A DNA stretch of 33,201 nucleotides from a virus (Duplodnaviria; Heunggongvirae; Uroviricota; Caudoviricetes), in the IMG/VR virus record IMGVR_UViG_2574180227_000019. The stretch is one strand, 5' to 3'. Below, in pieces: positions 13,015-28,126 of this stretch. Each line of letters starts with the position of its first letter. Positions within the stretch are counted from its first letter, which is position 1. The position numbers were made by a program, and so were the translations under genes. The notes under the pieces were generated by a model. It saw only the letters and a list, made by a program, of their open reading frames with translations, had not been told where the DNA came from and made no database searches.

Positions 13015-13394
13015 GCGCGGGCCTTTTTCGCCTGTTTCGCTTTGTTACCGGTCTTTTTCCGGGGAGCATCCTGTCCGGCTTCGGCTTCGGCTTCGGCTTC
13101 GGCTTCGGCTTCGGCTAAATCTGTACCGGCCACTGCATGAACCACCCCCGCCACGCTCCCCGCATCATCAGCAGGCGTCTGTAGTATTCGCACAGTGAGG
13201 CATGGCTCCGCCTCCAGTCGGGCAAGCTGCTCCGGGGTGACCTCAACCTGCTGACGTCCACGCGTGAACAGGAACCCCGCACGACGAAACGCCGAACGAC
13301 TGCAACGCACTTCTGCCAGCACCGTGACAGAATTGTCACCACTGACCTGAAGACCTGAATCATCTGTTGCTGCCACAGTGTGATGTTCATTCAT
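13011..13394 (-). CDS. Hypothetical protein (Mu gp35 position) with internal (Glu-Ala)6 repeat and Lys-rich C-terminus
   Basis: 127 aa ORF, ATG at 13392-13394 with GGAGGG upstream; contains the (GCTTCG)n repeat in frame. Confidence 0.5.
   Translation of the reverse strand: MNEHHTVAATDDSGLQVSGDNSVTVLAEVRCSRSAFRRAGFLFTRGRQQVEVTPEQLARLEAEPCLTVRILQTPADDAGSVAGVVHAVAGTDLAEAEAEAEAEAEAGQDAPRKKTGNKAKQAKKARA
13076..13116. repeat. Hexanucleotide tandem repeat (cggctt)x6.8, in frame, encoding (EA)6
   Basis: Read directly: cggctt repeated 6 times plus a partial copy at 13076..13116. Confidence 0.9.
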
Positions 13395-16197: not shown

Positions 16198-16282
16198 GTC
16201 GGTGTACTCTTAACTGGTAAAGCGGCGCCTGATGGTTTTTTCCTGAGGGATGTTTATGCGGGTTCGACCCCCGCCACCGACC
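16198..16282 (+). ncRNA. tRNA-like element (class II length), uncertain
   Basis: Perfect 7 bp acceptor-like stem (16198-16204 with 16275-16281), T-arm gcggg-ttcgacc-cccgc (16258-16274), T8 A9, GG in the D-loop, U33 and purine 37 around a GAT anticodon-like triplet. The anticodon stem pairs poorly (G-U pairs and mismatches) and the D-stem has one mismatch. Confidence 0.25.
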
Positions 16283-17607
16283 TACAATTCACCCTCCAGT
16301 AATTCCAGCTTTCCACCGCGCAGATCATCAAGTAATGCCTCCTTTTTGACTCTGTAGGCATTAATCACCACATCCAGCTTATCCGGCTGACGTTTCACAC
16401 TATAAGGCGCATTGACGGCAATCTTTGCCGTTCCGTCACGGGTTTCAGTGATGTAAAGCAGATTCTGATGGACATGATCCCACAGCACGGCATCAGGCGC
16501 GGCCAGCATTGCCGGTAATCGCCCGAAATCCTCCGGCGTCAGGGCAATGCCGTCATTCTGATGTTTCACGCTGTCCGCATGGAGCACATTTTTACCGCTC
16601 ATCGCCAGCAGGCGGGCCGGTGGCGTTCCCGTCCGGCTTTCCACCGCCTGCGCAATACTTTCGGTCATAAAGCCCAGCGTGCGGATATCGTGACCACCTC
16701 GCCGGGTCTTCATGATGTTTTTTGCCCAGATGCGGAACGCCAGCTGCCGCTCCGGGCTGTTGTTCATCTCCTGAACCACCATTTCCCGTAACGCCGGGCT
16801 TTTCACCTCGATCAGTTTACGGATCAGCGCCTGGTCTGTGCCGAACGCCGCCGAACCGGGGTTATATGACCAGCCCACATCCGGTGTCATGGTTCTGGTG
16901 CCATCTGAATATGTGGTCACCGGCATTTCTCTGACTTCTCCGGTCTGCTTATCCACGCCAGCCTCAACATTGCGGGTGGAGAGATGATCCTGACCGGATG
17001 AAACGGATAACCCCATTGCATCCAGACGGGCCTGAGATAATGGCCGGACACGGCAGCGGCAGTTCCAGCCATTGGGCGGGTAGTGTGTATTCCAGAACGG
17101 ATCGTCATAGCGGAATACCAGCCCGTTAAAGGCGGAATGTGCCGGGCGGGTGCGGCTGTCCATCACCGCCACATACTGCCAGAACGGATGCGTGTCCGTG
17201 TTGTTCATCATCTGCGTGTAACGCCCGGCATTGTAAGCCACACGGGTGTTCACGTTGTAAATCAGCGCCAGACGGCGGGGACTGCCCAGCTGCACTTCTT
17301 CCGCGTTACCGGCACTGTCCACCACAATCTGTTTTCCCCACCATCCCAGCTTTTGCAGGCGGGGTGTCAGCGTGCGAATAAATGCTTTCTGTGAAATTCC
17401 CTCATCAATGGCCCGCTGCACTTCGGCCTGTAACGTGGTCACCACATCCAGGCGTGCCGCTTTTGCTGCCGTGAATGAGCGGGCATGAACATCCGCGGCT
17501 GTTTCGAACCAGTTCCAGCTGATATGCGCCCCTTTGACACGGAAGTATGCTACCGCCTCTTTTGAGGGAAGCGTGGCGGCATAACCTAAATCAATCCCCT
17601 GTGTCAT
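16282..17607 (-). CDS. Head morphogenesis protein (Mu F-like)
   Basis: 441 aa ORF after portal; contains ...SRTRPAHSAFNGLVFRYDDPFWNTHYPPNGWNCRCRVRPL..., typical of the Mu F / minor head protein family as remembered. Confidence 0.75.
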   Translation of the reverse strand: MTQGIDLGYAATLPSKEAVAYFRVKGAHISWNWFETAADVHARSFTAAKAARLDVVTTLQAEVQRAIDEGISQKAFIRTLTPRLQKLGWWGKQIVVDSAGNAEEVQLGSPRRLALIYNVNTRVAYNAGRYTQMMNNTDTHPFWQYVAVMDSRTRPAHSAFNGLVFRYDDPFWNTHYPPNGWNCRCRVRPLSQARLDAMGLSVSSGQDHLSTRNVEAGVDKQTGEVREMPVTTYSDGTRTMTPDVGWSYNPGSAAFGTDQALIRKLIEVKSPALREMVVQEMNNSPERQLAFRIWAKNIMKTRRGGHDIRTLGFMTESIAQAVESRTGTPPARLLAMSGKNVLHADSVKHQNDGIALTPEDFGRLPAMLAAPDAVLWDHVHQNLLYITETRDGTAKIAVNAPYSVKRQPDKLDVVINAYRVKKEALLDDLRGGKLELLEGEL

Positions 17608-23477: not shown

Positions 23478-23903
23478 TCAGAAAAGTGGCGGTTGCGTTC
23501 TTGCCAGATGCAGACGGCGCTGTTCACGTATGACGGTATAAATCTGGGTTTCTGACATCCGGTAATGGCGGCGAAGGGATTCAATTTTCTCGCCCCGGTC
23601 CCAGCGCGAAAATATCTCATTGTTTCGCAGCTCGGCAAAGAGAGATTCCCCGACCGGCAGGTAATAACCCCGTCCGCCCATATAGGCTGCCTGAGCCGCA
23701 GCCACCTTGCGTGCCAGTTTACCGGCCAGTACCGGCTCAATCCCCTGACGCTGAAGTTCTGCGCCGGTGACTTCAACCAGTTCTGACAGGGTCCGCGGCC
23801 AGTTCTTTTTGAGAACATCATCAGGGATGTCATCAAGGCGGTCGATAAGGGCGTGCAGTTGCTCACTGTCACCACCAAACATGCTCATCTGAGTTTCTGC
23901 CAT
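23478..23903 (-). CDS. Mor/C-family transcriptional activator (middle/late gene activator)
   Basis: 141 aa; C-terminal ...YYLPVGESLFAELRNNEIFSRWDRGEKIESLRRHYRMSETQIYTVIREQRR... resembles the Mu Mor/C family as remembered; GGAGG Shine-Dalgarno; lies just downstream of an intrinsic terminator and upstream of the endolysin. Confidence 0.7.
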   Translation of the reverse strand: MAETQMSMFGGDSEQLHALIDRLDDIPDDVLKKNWPRTLSELVEVTGAELQRQGIEPVLAGKLARKVAAAQAAYMGGRGYYLPVGESLFAELRNNEIFSRWDRGEKIESLRRHYRMSETQIYTVIREQRRLHLARTQPPLF

Positions 23904-23944
23904 ATCAGCCTCCGGTTCTCGCGTTCCCGGTAAGTTTAAAATAA

Positions 23945-23968
23945 AAATCCCGCGTTGTGGCGGGATTT
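23945..23968 (-). terminator. Rho-independent terminator between GemA and the Mor/C-family gene
   Basis: On the minus-strand transcript: aaaucccgc-cacaac-gcgggauuu (9 bp stem, 6 nt loop) followed by uuauuuuaaa. Confidence 0.5.
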
Positions 23969-25303: not shown

Positions 25304-25672
25304 TTAATCAGTTTCCAGTGCTTTGCTACGGGCAACAGCCTCACACTCAAAAAATACCGACTCCGGCACACGTTCTTTTAATTCACGAACAAGGAAGTTA
25401 TTAACGCGCTCGTGACATCTTATATTTCTTTCCTTTTCCTCCTGGCGTAATACAGCAAGGCGGTATTCAACAGTCCGGCGTTGTTTCTGAAAGACAGCCA
25501 GTGCTTTTCTGGCAGAGTTACGCCATGTATCATCACCACAGGGTGCGTATTCAAGCTGAAATTTAATCTCTTCAATGGTTTCTTTTATTTTTGCCAGCAA
25601 GCTAAGACAGTCGCTGATTGTCTTCAGTTTTTCATTATCAATATAACTTCTCACGCATTCACCTCCCGTCAT
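25304..25672 (-). CDS. Hypothetical early protein (coiled-coil)
   Basis: The track ORF runs to 25696 (GTG); the ATG at 25670-25672 forms an ATGA overlap with the upstream stop, and an in-frame GTG at 25654 has GGAGGT upstream. Start uncertain. Confidence 0.4.
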   Translation of the reverse strand: MTGGECVRSYIDNEKLKTISDCLSLLAKIKETIEEIKFQLEYAPCGDDTWRNSARKALAVFQKQRRTVEYRLAVLRQEEKERNIRCHERVNNFLVRELKERVPESVFFECEAVARSKALETD

Positions 25673-25980
25673 TCCGGTAAAGCTGAAATATGGCACCAGT
25701 GCGTCACCTGTCCGTCCTCATCTTCAAGGCAGGCTCCGGTTTCTTCATCAACAAAAAAGCCTTCATACCCCATATGGCCGATGCGCAGCTCCTGACGGTG
25801 ACCATACTGAACAATCAGCACGACAGCCTCCATATCAGGTGGGAAAGCATCATTCAGTGAATGCCAGGGATAACCGCGTAAATCCCCGAAATAAACACCG
25901 GTCAGCGTTCCGCCACAGAGCGGCATTCCGGCGGCACACACAAGAGGTTCATCTGATTCAACAAATAAGGTCGTTATCAT
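25669..25980 (-). CDS. Hypothetical early protein (possibly DUF551-like)
   Basis: 103 aa, ATGA-coupled to the upstream gene; the DUF551 resemblance is a weak impression from memory. Confidence 0.4.
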   Translation of the reverse strand: MITTLFVESDEPLVCAAGMPLCGGTLTGVYFGDLRGYPWHSLNDAFPPDMEAVVLIVQYGHRQELRIGHMGYEGFFVDEETGACLEDEDGQVTHWCHISALPE

Positions 25981-26528
25981 GGCGTTAACTCCCGTAATAC
26001 AGCGTCCTCGGCAGTCCGGCGACGGTAATAAACTGCGTGAGCAGAATGTTCAGATATTCCAAACTTTTCGCCAATTTCCCGGAATGACAGACGGCGTGGG
26101 TAATCGGAATCACGCAGCGCACGTATAAGACGTACATCATAATCAGATATGCGCGTGCCGGGGCGTAACTCTCCGCACTTTGTTAATCCAGCACCAATCA
26201 TTCCTGCCCGACATCTGACAGAATCTTTATTACGTCCGAGATATTCTCCCATTTGCTGGCAGGTCATTGTTCTGGCATTTTTTCGAATAAACTTATCTTC
26301 ATCAGGTGTAAATCTTGGGTGTTTATATTTCAGTAACTCCGGGTATGAACTGCGCAATACACCAGTCCGGTTATATACAGCCCAGACAGTTCTTTTTATT
26401 CTGGCAGCAATATCCTTAACCGGGGTGGATGAATAAAGCGCAATCAGCAGCGCATCTTCTTCAGGTGTCCACGGACGGACATGAGCGGGGGCGCGACCTT
26501 TTAGTCCCATGGGTTGTAATTTCATCAT
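25977..26528 (-). CDS. Putative DNA-binding protein with tandem helix-turn-helix repeats (Myb/SANT-like and sigma region-4-like)
   Basis: 183 aa, GGGGGTGA Shine-Dalgarno. Two repeats of the pattern (W/F)TPEED...x20-25 (RPWTPEEDALLIALY...IAARIKRTVWAVYNR and PRFTPDEDKFIRKNARTMTCQQMGEYLGRN), then ...LSFREIGEKFGISEHSAHAVYYRR. Confidence 0.45.
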   Translation of the reverse strand: MMKLQPMGLKGRAPAHVRPWTPEEDALLIALYSSTPVKDIAARIKRTVWAVYNRTGVLRSSYPELLKYKHPRFTPDEDKFIRKNARTMTCQQMGEYLGRNKDSVRCRAGMIGAGLTKCGELRPGTRISDYDVRLIRALRDSDYPRRLSFREIGEKFGISEHSAHAVYYRRRTAEDAVLRELTP

Positions 26529-26531
26529 GCA

Positions 26532-27047
26532 TCACCCCCTGACTCGCTTTTCAGCAGCATAAAACTCATCAGACAGTATTTCGGTCATTTTCTGTTTTGC
26601 GGGTTTTACGCCGCACTGAAGGTAAATCACATCGTCAACGCAGAACCACTTCACAGGGCCAAACAGGATTGCCGAGAAATCAATACCCAGCCAGAACAAC
26701 AGCGCATCGGTTCTGGCATACGTGACGGGCGAATATTCACGCCACAGACTGTACAGTTCATCAGAGGCAACACGCAGGGTTTTAGGGATACGTGATGTGC
26801 GCGGTGTGCAGCTCCAGCCATTCGACGCAGTCGGTTTTCGCCATAAGTCGCGATGAAAAGGATATTTGTCCTCCGTAAAACGCAGTCCCTTAAAGCAAAA
26901 TCCACTGATACCGGATACAAATACCGACCGGCACGCAACATTCAGCACGGCCTCAAGGCGTTTTGCCTCATCCTTAACTTTCTGGCAGTCCTGCTGGTAT
27001 TTTTGCCACGCAGCCAGCGCGGAAGGGTTTGATGTTTTAAAGAACAT
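26532..27047 (-). CDS. Hypothetical early protein
   Basis: 171 aa, GGAGGTGG Shine-Dalgarno, tightly coupled to its neighbours. Confidence 0.45.
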   Translation of the reverse strand: MFFKTSNPSALAAWQKYQQDCQKVKDEAKRLEAVLNVACRSVFVSGISGFCFKGLRFTEDKYPFHRDLWRKPTASNGWSCTPRTSRIPKTLRVASDELYSLWREYSPVTYARTDALLFWLGIDFSAILFGPVKWFCVDDVIYLQCGVKPAKQKMTEILSDEFYAAEKRVRG

Positions 27048-27583: not shown

Positions 27584-28126
27584 TTATTCCTCCGTCAGCG
27601 CCACATATTCAGAATGTTTAATCTCCTGGCATTCTTCAGGAATACACCCTTTTATTTCCCTGCCATAAGCGCCTACTTTAAACACCACGCACAGGGCATC
27701 ACGGGAGAGCGACGGGGTCCACCAGGAGTCCGTGTTAAACATGGAGGGGATTCTCATTACCCCCAGCTTTTCACAGAGCCAGACAAGGAAATCAGGACGC
27801 TTTCTTAACTCGCGTTCAGCGGCTTCAATCATTGCGGCAATCGCCGCTCCTTCAGGGCATGACTCATCAGGTCTGGCTATAAAGCACTGTCCACCACCGA
27901 TAAAAGCCACATCATCGCGCTTACACCAGCCCGCAGGCAGAGCACCGGAAAAATAAAACTCACTGATTACGTCCATGGCGAACGGCTTTAAGCGCAATCC
28001 GGTAGCGCCTGTATTTTTCAGTAACGCCCGAAGAATACTGTTGCGTAGCGGTAAAACAGTCTGTTGATATTTGGTGAAATATTTATTTGTCTGCACACAG
28101 TCTAATTTGAAATAAAAATATGCCAT
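27584..28126 (-). CDS. Hypothetical early protein
   Basis: 180 aa, AGGA Shine-Dalgarno; no recognisable motif. Confidence 0.45.
   Translation of the reverse strand: MAYFYFKLDCVQTNKYFTKYQQTVLPLRNSILRALLKNTGATGLRLKPFAMDVISEFYFSGALPAGWCKRDDVAFIGGGQCFIARPDESCPEGAAIAAMIEAAERELRKRPDFLVWLCEKLGVMRIPSMFNTDSWWTPSLSRDALCVVFKVGAYGREIKGCIPEECQEIKHSEYVALTEE

What the first reader, a model, noticed from the sequence alone, without database searches (positions are those of the whole stretch)
25977..26528. Early protein with tandem Myb/SANT-like repeats and a sigma region-4-like helix-turn-helix
The 183 aa product has two consecutive repeats of the pattern (W/F)TPEED...x20-25 followed by a C-terminal LSFREIGEKFGISEHSAHAVYYRR segment. 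A three-module DNA-binding architecture is unusual for a small phage early protein and suggests a host- or phage-promoter regulator.
Basis: seen in the sequence. Interest (0 to 1): 0.4.

Follow-up and report, generated by a model that had tools for sequence, protein, structure and literature searches.

The report
Triple helix-turn-helix early prophage protein
This is a real early gene of a Mu-like E. coli prophage encoding a small basic protein built from three helix-turn-helix DNA-binding modules; it belongs to an already catalogued, widespread phage family (prototype: phage T5 protein D5), so it is a fairly ordinary, though functionally untested, phage DNA-binding protein.

Summary
A 183-aa ORF lies at 25977-26528 on the minus strand, with WTPEED (aa 20-25), FTPDED (aa 73-78) and the C-terminal LSFREIGEKFGISEHSAHAVYYRR segment. 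The window is a Mu-like E. coli prophage. The gene sits in the early "semi-essential" operon and is translationally coupled to its neighbours.

The architecture is not unusual. The protein belongs to PHROG 323 (E 1e-51). It is collinear with phage T5 D5 (hhalign 97.4%), an early DNA-binding protein needed for replication and late transcription. Mu gp9 is a two-module member. Homologues also sit in P2-like early operons, and thousands of proteins carry the same repeat. RefSeq already labels the protein SANT/Myb-like.

One new point: two alleles (~71% identical) circulate in near-identical backbones, and they differ mainly in the three recognition helices.

Function remains inferred: a monomeric multi-HTH dsDNA binder acting early in lytic growth. 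Verdict: new member of a known kind, low-to-moderate interest.

The parts
25977..26528 (-). CDS of 183 aa (21 kDa, pI 10.0); D5-like triple-HTH protein; stop TGA at 25977-25979
   Evidence: WP_032182839.1; PHROG 323, E 1.3e-51
26535..26540 (-). Shine-Dalgarno AGGGGG, 6 nt upstream of the ATG; it abuts the TGA stop (26534-26532) of the preceding gp12-like gene, so there is no intergenic promoter space
   Evidence: read directly from the sequence; no sigma-70 consensus upstream on the minus strand
26472..26528 (-). aa 1-19: conserved basic N-terminal arm (MxLxPMGxPGxxPAHVR), predicted disordered (pLDDT 44-61); 0 of 21 positions (aa 1-21) differ between the two alleles
   Evidence: PHROG 38779 match to aa 2-54
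26352..26471 (-). aa 20-59: HTH module 1 (helices 22-31, 37-43, 48-59), Myb/SANT-GcrA-N-type repeat beginning WTPEED
   Evidence: 35.2 bits to the unit HMM
26193..26312 (-). aa 73-112: HTH module 2 (helices 75-84, 90-97, 101-110), second copy of the repeat beginning FTPDED
   Evidence: 97.7% vs module 1; 49.7 bits
26151..26192 (-). aa 113-126: linker 2 with the family-invariant K117 and G119 (K-x-G-D/E motif)
26019..26150 (-). aa 127-170: HTH module 3 (helices 129-140, 149-156, 160-169); generic or diverged tri-helical HTH containing LSFREIGEKFGISEHSAHAVYYRR; carries the strongest allele divergence (7 of 10 helix-3 positions)
25980..26018 (-). aa 171-183: conserved C-terminal helix (RTAxDxxxRExLP); 0 of 14 positions (aa 170-183) differ between alleles
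25977..25980 (-). ATGA overlap: the stop of this gene overlaps the start of the next ORF (25669-25980), indicating translational coupling within the early operon

Best explanation
The gene encodes a member of the phage 'D5-like' family (PHROG 323). It is a small, basic, non-enzymatic protein made of three tandem tri-helical helix-turn-helix modules. A conserved basic N-terminal arm precedes them and a conserved C-terminal helix follows. It is transcribed as part of the early (repressor-controlled, semi-essential) operon of a Mu-like prophage, so it is made soon after induction or infection.

Most likely mechanism: it binds double-stranded DNA as a monomer. The third helix of each module would sit in successive major grooves, as in c-Myb R2R3, GcrA-DBD, Tc3/Pax bipartite domains and archaeal Cbp proteins. 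The flexible 13-18-aa linkers would let the modules track along the helix, and the N-terminal arm may add minor-groove or backbone contacts. By analogy with T5 D5, DNA occupancy would modulate the early-to-late programme (damping early transcription, assisting replication/transposition and late expression) as an accessory rather than essential factor.

Shown here: the gene is real and under purifying selection, it sits in the early operon, it has a three-HTH fold, modules 1 and 2 are repeats, it is homologous to T5 D5 and Mu gp9, and the alleles diverge mainly in the recognition helices. Inferred, not shown: DNA binding itself, monomeric binding, sequence specificity, and the regulatory role.
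For: Family and homology:
- PHROG 323 match at E 1.3e-51. T5 D5 and Mu gp9 hit the same PHROG at 1.2e-71 and 5.2e-29.
- hhalign of the 25-member family alignment against T5 D5 gives 97.4%, E 9.6e-12, with 163 aligned columns spanning all three modules.
- The family HMM hits Mu gp9 at E 2e-14, over modules 2-3.
- The T5 record describes D5 as 'DNA-binding protein; required for DNA replication and late transcription; also involved in shutoff...'. PMC12630848, citing McCorquodale 1979, says the same.

Fold:
- The AF2 model has pLDDT 83.6 and shows three 3-helix bundles.
- The family profile matches c-Myb at E 4.9e-8 in tandem register and a CRISPR-repeat-binding two-HTH protein (2lvs) at E 2e-5.

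Charge: pI 10.0, with net positive charge in every module and every helix 3.

Context: the gene is always in early lytic operons. In 40+ E. coli/Salmonella Mu-like loci it lies between the gp12-like gene and the next small ORF. In about 20 P2-like loci it lies between the cox/ead-like genes and replication gene A. No partner gene is conserved across the two contexts.

Selection: between the two E. coli alleles dN/dS is 0.24-0.30 overall, 0.04-0.10 in helix 1, and 0.56-0.95 in helix 3. Fixed differences are 15 of 32 helix-3 positions against 20 of 151 elsewhere (Fisher p 6e-5). This places the variable surface on the canonical DNA-reading helices.
Against: - There is no experimental data for this protein or any close homologue.
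- The only characterised relative, T5 D5, is distant (about 25% identity). It has an extra ~70-aa N-terminal region and is acidic-neutral (pI 6.3 against 10.0), so function transfer is weak.
- No candidate binding-site array or repeated motif was found in the early region of the window.
- Whole-chain Foldseek against the PDB is non-significant (best E 0.04). The inter-module geometry is undefined (pTM 0.48).
- SANT-type domains can be protein-binding rather than DNA-binding.
- High dN/dS in helix 3 is also what simple relaxation of exposed residues would give.
- The highly diverged segment is confined to the gene itself, with no linked non-coding DNA. That argues against a co-evolving phage cis-site next to the gene.
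Confidence: 0.6

Rival explanations
1. Classical sequence-specific transcription factor. The three different recognition helices together read one long asymmetric operator at a particular phage or host promoter. The two alleles recognise different operators.
For: - The three modules have different helix-3 sequences.
- Allele differences are concentrated in helix 3 of all three modules, while helices 1-2, the N-arm and the C-tail are invariant.
- The structural analogues c-Myb R2R3 and GcrA-DBD are sequence-specific.
Against: - No candidate operator or repeated motif was found in the early region.
- The diverged cassette contains no non-coding DNA, so no linked cis-site travels with the allele.
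- The allele class is not linked to the type of late activator (C-like gene) carried by the same prophage.
- From memory, not checked here: the characterised relative T5 D5 is described as a general, cooperative dsDNA binder.
- The window lacks the left-end operator region, so phage operators could not be examined.
Confidence: 0.25
2. Protein-binding adaptor rather than DNA binder. SANT-like modules, the conserved disordered N-terminal peptide and the conserved C-terminal helix would dock onto a host protein (RNA polymerase/sigma, a nucleoid protein or a defence protein). Helix-3 variation would reflect an arms race with that partner.
For: - The most conserved parts of the family are outside the recognition helices: the N-terminal peptide PMGxPGxxPAH, the KxGD linker and the C-terminal RxTAxDxxxRExLP.
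- GcrA, the top structural hit, works through sigma-70 contact.
- The gene recurs in accessory early regions, which are rich in host-takeover and anti-defence genes.
Against: - pI is 10.0, with positive charge on each helix 3.
- Sequence-profile similarity is to DNA-binding Myb repeats, not to SANT co-repressor domains.
- The same repeat is fused to HNH endonucleases, methylases and helicases as an apparent DNA-targeting module.
- There is no PADLOC hit.
- GcrA's sigma-interacting zinc domain is absent.
Confidence: 0.1
3. Degenerate remnant: the orphaned DNA-targeting domain of a homing endonuclease or another mobile-element protein, carried passively in the variable early region without a function of its own.
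For: - Residues 12-118 match the N-terminal regions of mycobacteriophage HNH endonuclease/methylase genes (35% identity, E 2e-7).
- PHROG hits to HNH-endonuclease families are weak (phrog_1891).
- The gene behaves as a mosaic cassette.
Against: - A full-length ~180-aa architecture is conserved at 36-47% identity between Mu-like and P2-like phages.
- dN/dS is 0.24-0.30, with helix 1 at 0.04-0.10.
- It has an intact SD sequence and translational coupling.
- No adjacent nuclease pseudogene is present.
Confidence: 0.03

Closest known systems
Phage T5 protein D5 (T5.118), prototype of PHROG 323 'transcriptional regulator, D5-like'
   Same: Both belong to the same PHROG. hhalign gives 97.4% over all three modules, collinear, including the WTPE / FTPDE module starts. 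Both are early genes and non-enzymatic multi-HTH proteins.
   Different: D5 is 255 aa and has an extra ~70-aa N-terminal region that looks like a fourth HTH. Its pI is 6.3 against 10.0, and identity is only about 25%. D5 comes from a virulent phage and is needed for replication and late transcription. The prophage protein sits in a dispensable-type region and is untested.
Phage Mu gp9 (Mup09, formerly E8), function unknown
   Same: It is in the same PHROG (E 5e-29). The family HMM aligns it to module 2 + linker + module 3 at E 2e-14. It also lies in the semi-essential early region of a transposable phage, and each genome has exactly one family member there.
   Different: gp9 is 99 aa with only two modules. 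It lacks the N-terminal arm, module 1 and the KxGD linker. It lies upstream of gam, whereas here the gene lies downstream of gam/gp11/gp12.
Eukaryotic c-Myb/B-Myb R2R3 DNA-binding repeats (Pfam PF00249)
   Different: Only the first of the three spaced tryptophans is kept (W20/F73). This protein alone is below Pfam's threshold (19.7 vs 24.4 bits). The third module is not Myb-like. The context is prokaryotic/phage.
Caulobacter GcrA N-terminal DNA-binding domain (PDB 5yiu; Pfam PF07750)
   Different: GcrA has a single DBD plus a C-terminal CCCH zinc domain that binds sigma-70. That domain is absent here, and there is no PF07750 hit for this protein.
Multi-HTH monomeric DNA binders: Tc3/Mos1 transposase bipartite domains, the Pax paired domain, the archaeal CRISPR-repeat-binding protein (2lvs)
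   Same: All have beads-on-a-string tri-helical HTH modules joined by flexible linkers, each contacting a separate major-groove segment.
   Different: There is no catalytic domain, there are three rather than two modules, and similarity is at fold or weak-profile level only (Foldseek E >= 0.04; profile E 2e-5 for 2lvs).

Membership tests
PHROG 323 / T5 D5-like phage proteins | Significant match to the family profile | tested here: met
   E 1.3e-51, 177 bits, aa 2-182. T5 D5 and Mu gp9 hit the same profile.
PHROG 323 / T5 D5-like phage proteins | Collinear tandem HTH modules shared with the prototype D5 | tested here: met
   hhalign of A2 vs D5: 97.4%, E 9.6e-12, 163 columns, query 17-183 aligned to D5 71-252.
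PHROG 323 / T5 D5-like phage proteins | dsDNA binding; requirement for replication and late transcription; early shutoff (the experimentally defined properties of D5) | not testable with these tools
   Known only from the T5 record note and cited 1979 work. Basic pI is consistent with DNA binding.
Myb/SANT DNA-binding domain (PF00249, PF13921) | Score above Pfam's gathering threshold | tested here: not met
   19.7 bits vs 24.4, and 15.9 vs 22.9, for this protein. Relatives P0034 (32.4 bits) and P0022 (140 bits) pass.
Myb/SANT DNA-binding domain (PF00249, PF13921) | Three-helix bundle with an HTH, in tandem ~50-aa repeats | tested here: met
Myb/SANT DNA-binding domain (PF00249, PF13921) | Three regularly spaced tryptophans (or aromatics) forming the core of each repeat | tested here: not met
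   Read from the alignments. Only the first position is kept (W20 invariant; F73 in module 2). The positions of the second and third Trp hold V/T-type residues.
GcrA family (PF07750) | N-terminal GcrA-type HTH fold | tested here: met
GcrA family (PF07750) | C-terminal sigma-70-interacting CCCH zinc domain, and a Pfam profile match | tested here: not met
   No PF07750 hit even at E <= 10. The protein ends 13 aa after module 3 and has no C-x14-C-x9-C-x2-H motif (sequence; motif definition).
Sigma-70 family, region 4 (PF04545; TIGR02937) | Score above the curated thresholds, and presence of sigma region 2 | tested here: not met
   Sigma70_r4 12.1 bits vs 24.1 (E 0.15), covering only aa 145-160. 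TIGR02937 11.9 vs 42.9. No region 2 is present.
AsnC/Lrp family (the name many database copies carry) | HTH_AsnC-type above threshold plus a C-terminal AsnC_trans_reg (RAM) ligand-binding domain | tested here: not met
   HTH_AsnC-type 20.4 bits vs 27. No RAM-domain hit, and there is no room for one. The 'AsnC family protein' names seen are over-annotations.

The most novel reading that the evidence does not exclude
The gene is a swappable specificity cassette. Otherwise near-identical Mu-like prophages carry one of two anciently diverged alleles (dS ~0.6) that differ mainly in the three DNA-reading helices. Exchanging the allele would retarget an early-lytic multi-HTH regulator to different DNA sites in the host or in rival prophages, adding a previously unrecognised layer of inter-phage competition or host reprogramming. 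A more remote variant concerns this lineage specifically. It lacks Mor and keeps its single C-like late activator behind an intrinsic terminator, so the D5-like protein might supply the missing early-to-late switch.
Probability: 0.1. Interest if true: 0.55.

Novelty: new member of a known kind. Interest (0 to 1): 0.25.

Why it matters
The practical gains are modest.

1. It corrects annotation. Copies of this protein are variously labelled 'AsnC family', 'winged HTH' or 'SANT/Myb-like'. None of the sigma-70, AsnC or GcrA memberships holds. The informative link is to T5 D5 and Mu gp9.

2. It ties one uncharacterised gene of the classic Mu semi-essential region (gp9) and a common P2-like early gene to the only family member with genetics, T5 D5. 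The mechanism of T5's early-to-late switch is still unresolved. A small, soluble prophage homologue with two natural alleles that differ in the recognition helices would be a convenient handle for working out what D5-like proteins do.

3. It documents that tandem Myb-like/GcrA-N-like HTH repeats are abundant in phages and bacteria, from 2 to about 12 copies and fused to helicases and nucleases. This bears on the origin of Myb-type repeats.

Tried and rejected
- Plus-strand reading of the interval: full of stops.
- Single-sequence PDB search: nothing significant.
- NCBIfam: only a sub-threshold sigma-70 hit. PADLOC: no defence-system match for this gene or three neighbours.
- BLASTP against Mu gp9: not significant (E 1.7). 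The relationship appears only with profiles.
- Module 3 as a third copy of the repeat: not shown directly. The unit HMM gives 0.5 bits, hhalign of module 1 vs module 3 gives 10%, and module 2 vs module 3 gives 68%. I left this as 'possible'.
- Search for a binding-site array: TRF and direct/inverted repeat scans of the window and early region found only chance-level short repeats.
- Internal promoter that would make the gene a lysogen-expressed moron: no consensus hit upstream on the minus strand, and the promoter-like count equals the shuffled expectation.
- Linkage of allele class to neighbouring genes or to the C-like activator type: none.
- The search for related loci with the broad alignment failed because no stretch was conserved enough. 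The genome-contig scan returned a single weak Verrucomicrobia locus.
- Literature searches for phage Myb-like proteins, Mu early-region functions and T5 D5 found no modern functional study. The 1979 D5 paper is not held.
I do not rely on it.

Full report
**1. What is at the coordinates**

The interval 25977-26528 holds a 183-aa ORF on the minus strand. The plus-strand frame is full of stops.

An AGGGGG Shine-Dalgarno sequence lies 6 nt before the ATG and abuts the stop codon of the preceding gene. The TGA of this gene overlaps the ATG of the next ORF as ATGA (sequence). No sigma-70-like promoter lies upstream on the coding strand, and promoter-like matches in the region are no more frequent than in shuffled sequence. 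The gene is therefore an internal, translationally coupled member of a long operon.

**2. Where the window comes from**

The window is 100% identical to a prophage of E. coli strain SW070917. Similar DNA is annotated as a 'Mu-like phage' inserted in Stx phage records. All genes run on the minus strand:

- Mu transposase A and MuB
- small early ORFs, then Gam, gp11-like and gp12-like genes
- the gene in question
- four or five small ORFs
- a gp16/GemA-family gene
- one Mor/C-family gene
- lysis, head and tail genes, an invertase and a Com/methyltransferase module

The gene thus lies in the equivalent of Mu's early 'semi-essential' region (compare the Mu map). RefSeq already names it 'SANT/Myb-like DNA-binding domain-containing protein' (WP_032182839.1). 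Related DNA occurs in 232 of 5,426 complete E. coli genomes.

**3. Anatomy of the protein**

AlphaFold2, run with 16 homologues, gives mean pLDDT 83.6. It predicts three separate three-helix bundles:

| Module | Helix 1 | Helix 2 | Helix 3 |
|---|---|---|---|
| 1 | 22-31 | 37-43 | 48-59 |
| 2 | 75-84 | 90-97 | 101-110 |
| 3 | 129-140 | 149-156 | 160-169 |

A final helix spans 173-181 and the N-terminus is disordered. The low pTM (0.48) indicates no fixed arrangement between modules.

Modules 1 and 2 are genuine repeats. The profile-profile comparison gives 97.7% and E 2e-12. A single-unit HMM built from unrelated multi-repeat proteins scores them at 35.2 and 49.7 bits.

Module 3 is different. 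It scores 0.5 bits against that unit HMM and gives 10% against module 1 and 68% against module 2 by hhalign. In the alignment to T5 D5 it pairs with D5's last module, which does match the unit (13.9 bits). I therefore treat module 3 as a generic tri-helical HTH that may be a strongly diverged third copy.

The protein is basic (pI 10.0), with net positive charge in each module and on each third helix.

**4. Domain assignments**

For this protein alone every Pfam hit is below the curated threshold:

| Pfam model | Score | Cut-off |
|---|---|---|
| HTH_AsnC-type | 20.4 | 27 |
| Myb_DNA-binding | 19.7 | 24.4 |
| HTH_10 | 18.7 | 23.1 |
| Sigma70_r4 | 12.1 (E 0.15) | 24.1 |

NCBIfam gives only a sub-threshold sigma-70 hit.

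At family level the picture is clear. The 25-sequence family profile matches c-Myb R1R2R3 at E 4.9e-8, with modules 1+2 aligned in tandem to R2+R3. It also matches B-Myb, v-Myb, Trichomonas Myb proteins and a two-HTH CRISPR-repeat-binding protein. Relatives pass Pfam's Myb threshold (P0034 at 32.4 bits; P0022 at 140 bits in 7 stretches). In module 3 the relatives pass Sigma70_r4, HTH_38, HTH_23, HTH_24 and HTH_7 about equally.

In summary, modules 1-2 are Myb/SANT-GcrA-N-type repeats. Module 3 is 'sigma-r4-like' only in the sense that all simple tri-helical HTHs are. The 'AsnC family protein' label carried by many database copies is not justified, because the protein has no RAM domain and is below threshold.

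**5. The family it belongs to**

The strongest assignment is PHROG 323, 'transcriptional regulator, D5-like' (E 1.3e-51 over aa 2-182). The prototype, phage T5 D5 (T5.118, 255 aa), hits the same PHROG at 1.2e-71. It aligns to the family profile at 97.4% probability (E 9.6e-12) over 163 columns covering all three modules. The T5 record describes D5 as a DNA-binding protein required for DNA replication and late transcription and involved in shutoff of earlier expression. A recent paper summarises it the same way, citing McCorquodale 1979. A D5 homologue is abundant enough to contaminate virion preparations of a T5-like Yersinia phage.

Phage Mu's own gp9 (99 aa, function unknown) is a two-module member of the family. 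It hits PHROG 323 at 5e-29, and the family HMM hits it at 2e-14, aligned to module 2 + linker + module 3. It lies upstream of gam rather than downstream. In the stretches scanned (this window, the first 11.5 kb of Mu, and one Salmonella Mu-like locus), each holds exactly one family member.

**6. How common the architecture is**

A profile search of 1.84 billion representative proteins finds 9,757 hits at E <= 1e-3. About 25 clusters are of the full-length ~180-aa type, from E. coli and Salmonella. Many others are 300-1,100-aa proteins with 4-12 tandem copies of the unit WTxEEDxxL...EIAxxLGRSxxAxxxRAxxLGI. One of these has an N-terminal helicase.

The two-repeat part also matches N-terminal regions of mycobacteriophage HNH-endonuclease/methylase genes and proteins of Klebsiella, Vibrio and Goslar phages. 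Twenty-eight predicted viral structures match at E <= 1e-3, including a 'D5 protein' and 'Myb-like' proteins. The architecture is therefore not unusual for phages.

**7. Genomic contexts**

Sixty-three IMG/VR loci encode relatives. In all the E. coli and Salmonella Mu-like loci the gene follows the gp12-like gene. In about 20 P2-like (Peduoviridae) loci, and in Citrobacter phage Shae_phiSM, a 36-47%-identical homologue sits in the early operon between the cox/ead-like genes and replication gene A. The common denominator is the repressor-controlled early lytic operon near the replication/transposition genes. No neighbouring gene is conserved across the two contexts.

**8. Two alleles that differ in the recognition helices**

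E. coli Mu-like prophages carry either this allele (96-99% identity) or a second one at 69-74% identity. The flanking gp12-like and downstream ORFs stay 90-100% identical.

Nucleotide identity drops to 58-86% across most of the gene, against 85-100% in the flanks. dS is about 0.6 along the whole gene, so this is an old allele embedded in a young backbone. Overall dN/dS is 0.24-0.30, which indicates a functional gene.

Selection is very uneven along the protein:

| Region | dN/dS |
|---|---|
| Helix 1 | 0.04-0.10 |
| Helix 2 | 0.09-0.22 |
| Helix 3 | 0.56-0.95 |

Fixed differences fall on 15 of 32 helix-3 positions against 20 of 151 elsewhere (Fisher p 6e-5). Seven of the ten helix-3 positions in module 3 differ. 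None of the first 21 or last 14 residues differs.

This is what a change of DNA-reading specificity would look like. Relaxed constraint on exposed helices, or an arms race with a protein partner, would give the same pattern. The diverged segment contains no non-coding DNA, and the allele class is not linked to the type of C-like activator in the same prophage. Nothing points to a co-evolving cis-site nearby.

**9. Most likely mechanism**

I commit to a monomeric, multi-HTH dsDNA-binding protein of the D5 family, made early in lytic growth. Each helix 3 would engage a major-groove segment and the basic N-terminal arm would add contacts. The protein would modulate the phage's early-to-late programme or replication as an accessory factor.

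The fold, the family, the early-operon placement and the selection pattern are shown here. DNA binding, stoichiometry, specificity and biological role are inferred. Confidence is about 0.6 for this general statement and much lower for any specific role.

The rivals are a classical operator-specific regulator (0.25), a protein-binding adaptor (0.1) and a decaying nuclease-targeting remnant (0.03).

**10. Searches that found nothing**

- No repeated cis-motif array in the early region.
- No PADLOC match.
- No significant whole-chain Foldseek hit in the PDB.
- No literature on phage Myb-like early proteins or on Mu gp9.

The window lacks the prophage's left-end operator region, so I could not look for phage operators.

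**11. Verdict**

The gene is a new member of a known, catalogued but poorly understood family. Interest is low to moderate. The allele pattern and the link between T5 D5, Mu gp9 and the P2-like early genes are the useful take-aways.

Noticed in passing
window 23478-23968 (minus strand): The prophage has only one Mor/C-family gene (23478-23903). It is closer to Mu C (39% identity, E 4e-35) than to Mu Mor (27%, E 3e-14). It lies directly behind a strong intrinsic terminator (9-bp stem at 23968-23945 plus a T-run) that starts 5 nt after the gp16/GemA-family stop. Only about 30 nt separate the T-run from the C-like ATG, leaving no room for a Pm-like promoter. The early-to-late cascade must therefore differ from Mu's Mor -> Pm -> C scheme, for example through read-through or antitermination.
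   Followed up: partly
window ~16199-16283 (plus strand): RefSeq annotates a 'tRNA-OTHER' between the virion-morphogenesis (G-like) and head-morphogenesis (F-like) genes. ARAGORN finds no tRNA anywhere in the window and Rfam gives no match at gathering thresholds. The annotation looks doubtful.
   Followed up: partly
window 25304-25980 and related loci L004-L043: The small ORFs just downstream of the target (103 aa, 130 aa and 111 aa; PHROGs 6925, 6158 and 1988, all of unknown function) are present or absent in different combinations among otherwise near-identical E. coli Mu-like prophages. This stretch is a mosaic hot spot of the early region.
   Followed up: no
window 27584-28126 (minus strand): The 180-aa ORF between Gam and the gp11-like gene (PHROG 2260, no Pfam hit) is replaced in some related prophages by a version only 23-30% identical, or is absent. 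This is a second variable cassette in the early operon.
   Followed up: no
proteins P0022, P0026, P0031, P0079 (from; not in the window): These metagenomic proteins of 300-800 aa consist of 5-12 tandem copies of the same Myb-like/GcrA-N-like HTH unit. One (P0022) has an N-terminal ResIII/Helicase_C helicase. Such long arrays of HTH repeats appear uncharacterised.
   Followed up: partly
window 13076-13116: A perfect hexanucleotide tandem repeat, CGGCTT x 6.8, lies inside the head/tail-joining gene region. On the coding strand it would encode a short dipeptide repeat.
   Followed up: no
just outside the window, NZ_CM129862.1 1875731-1876937 (locus L067:1-938): At the right end of the same prophage the Com-like regulator is followed by a 'DNA cytosine methyltransferase' rather than a Mom-type modification gene. 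This is a different DNA-modification module from Mu's com/mom.
   Followed up: no
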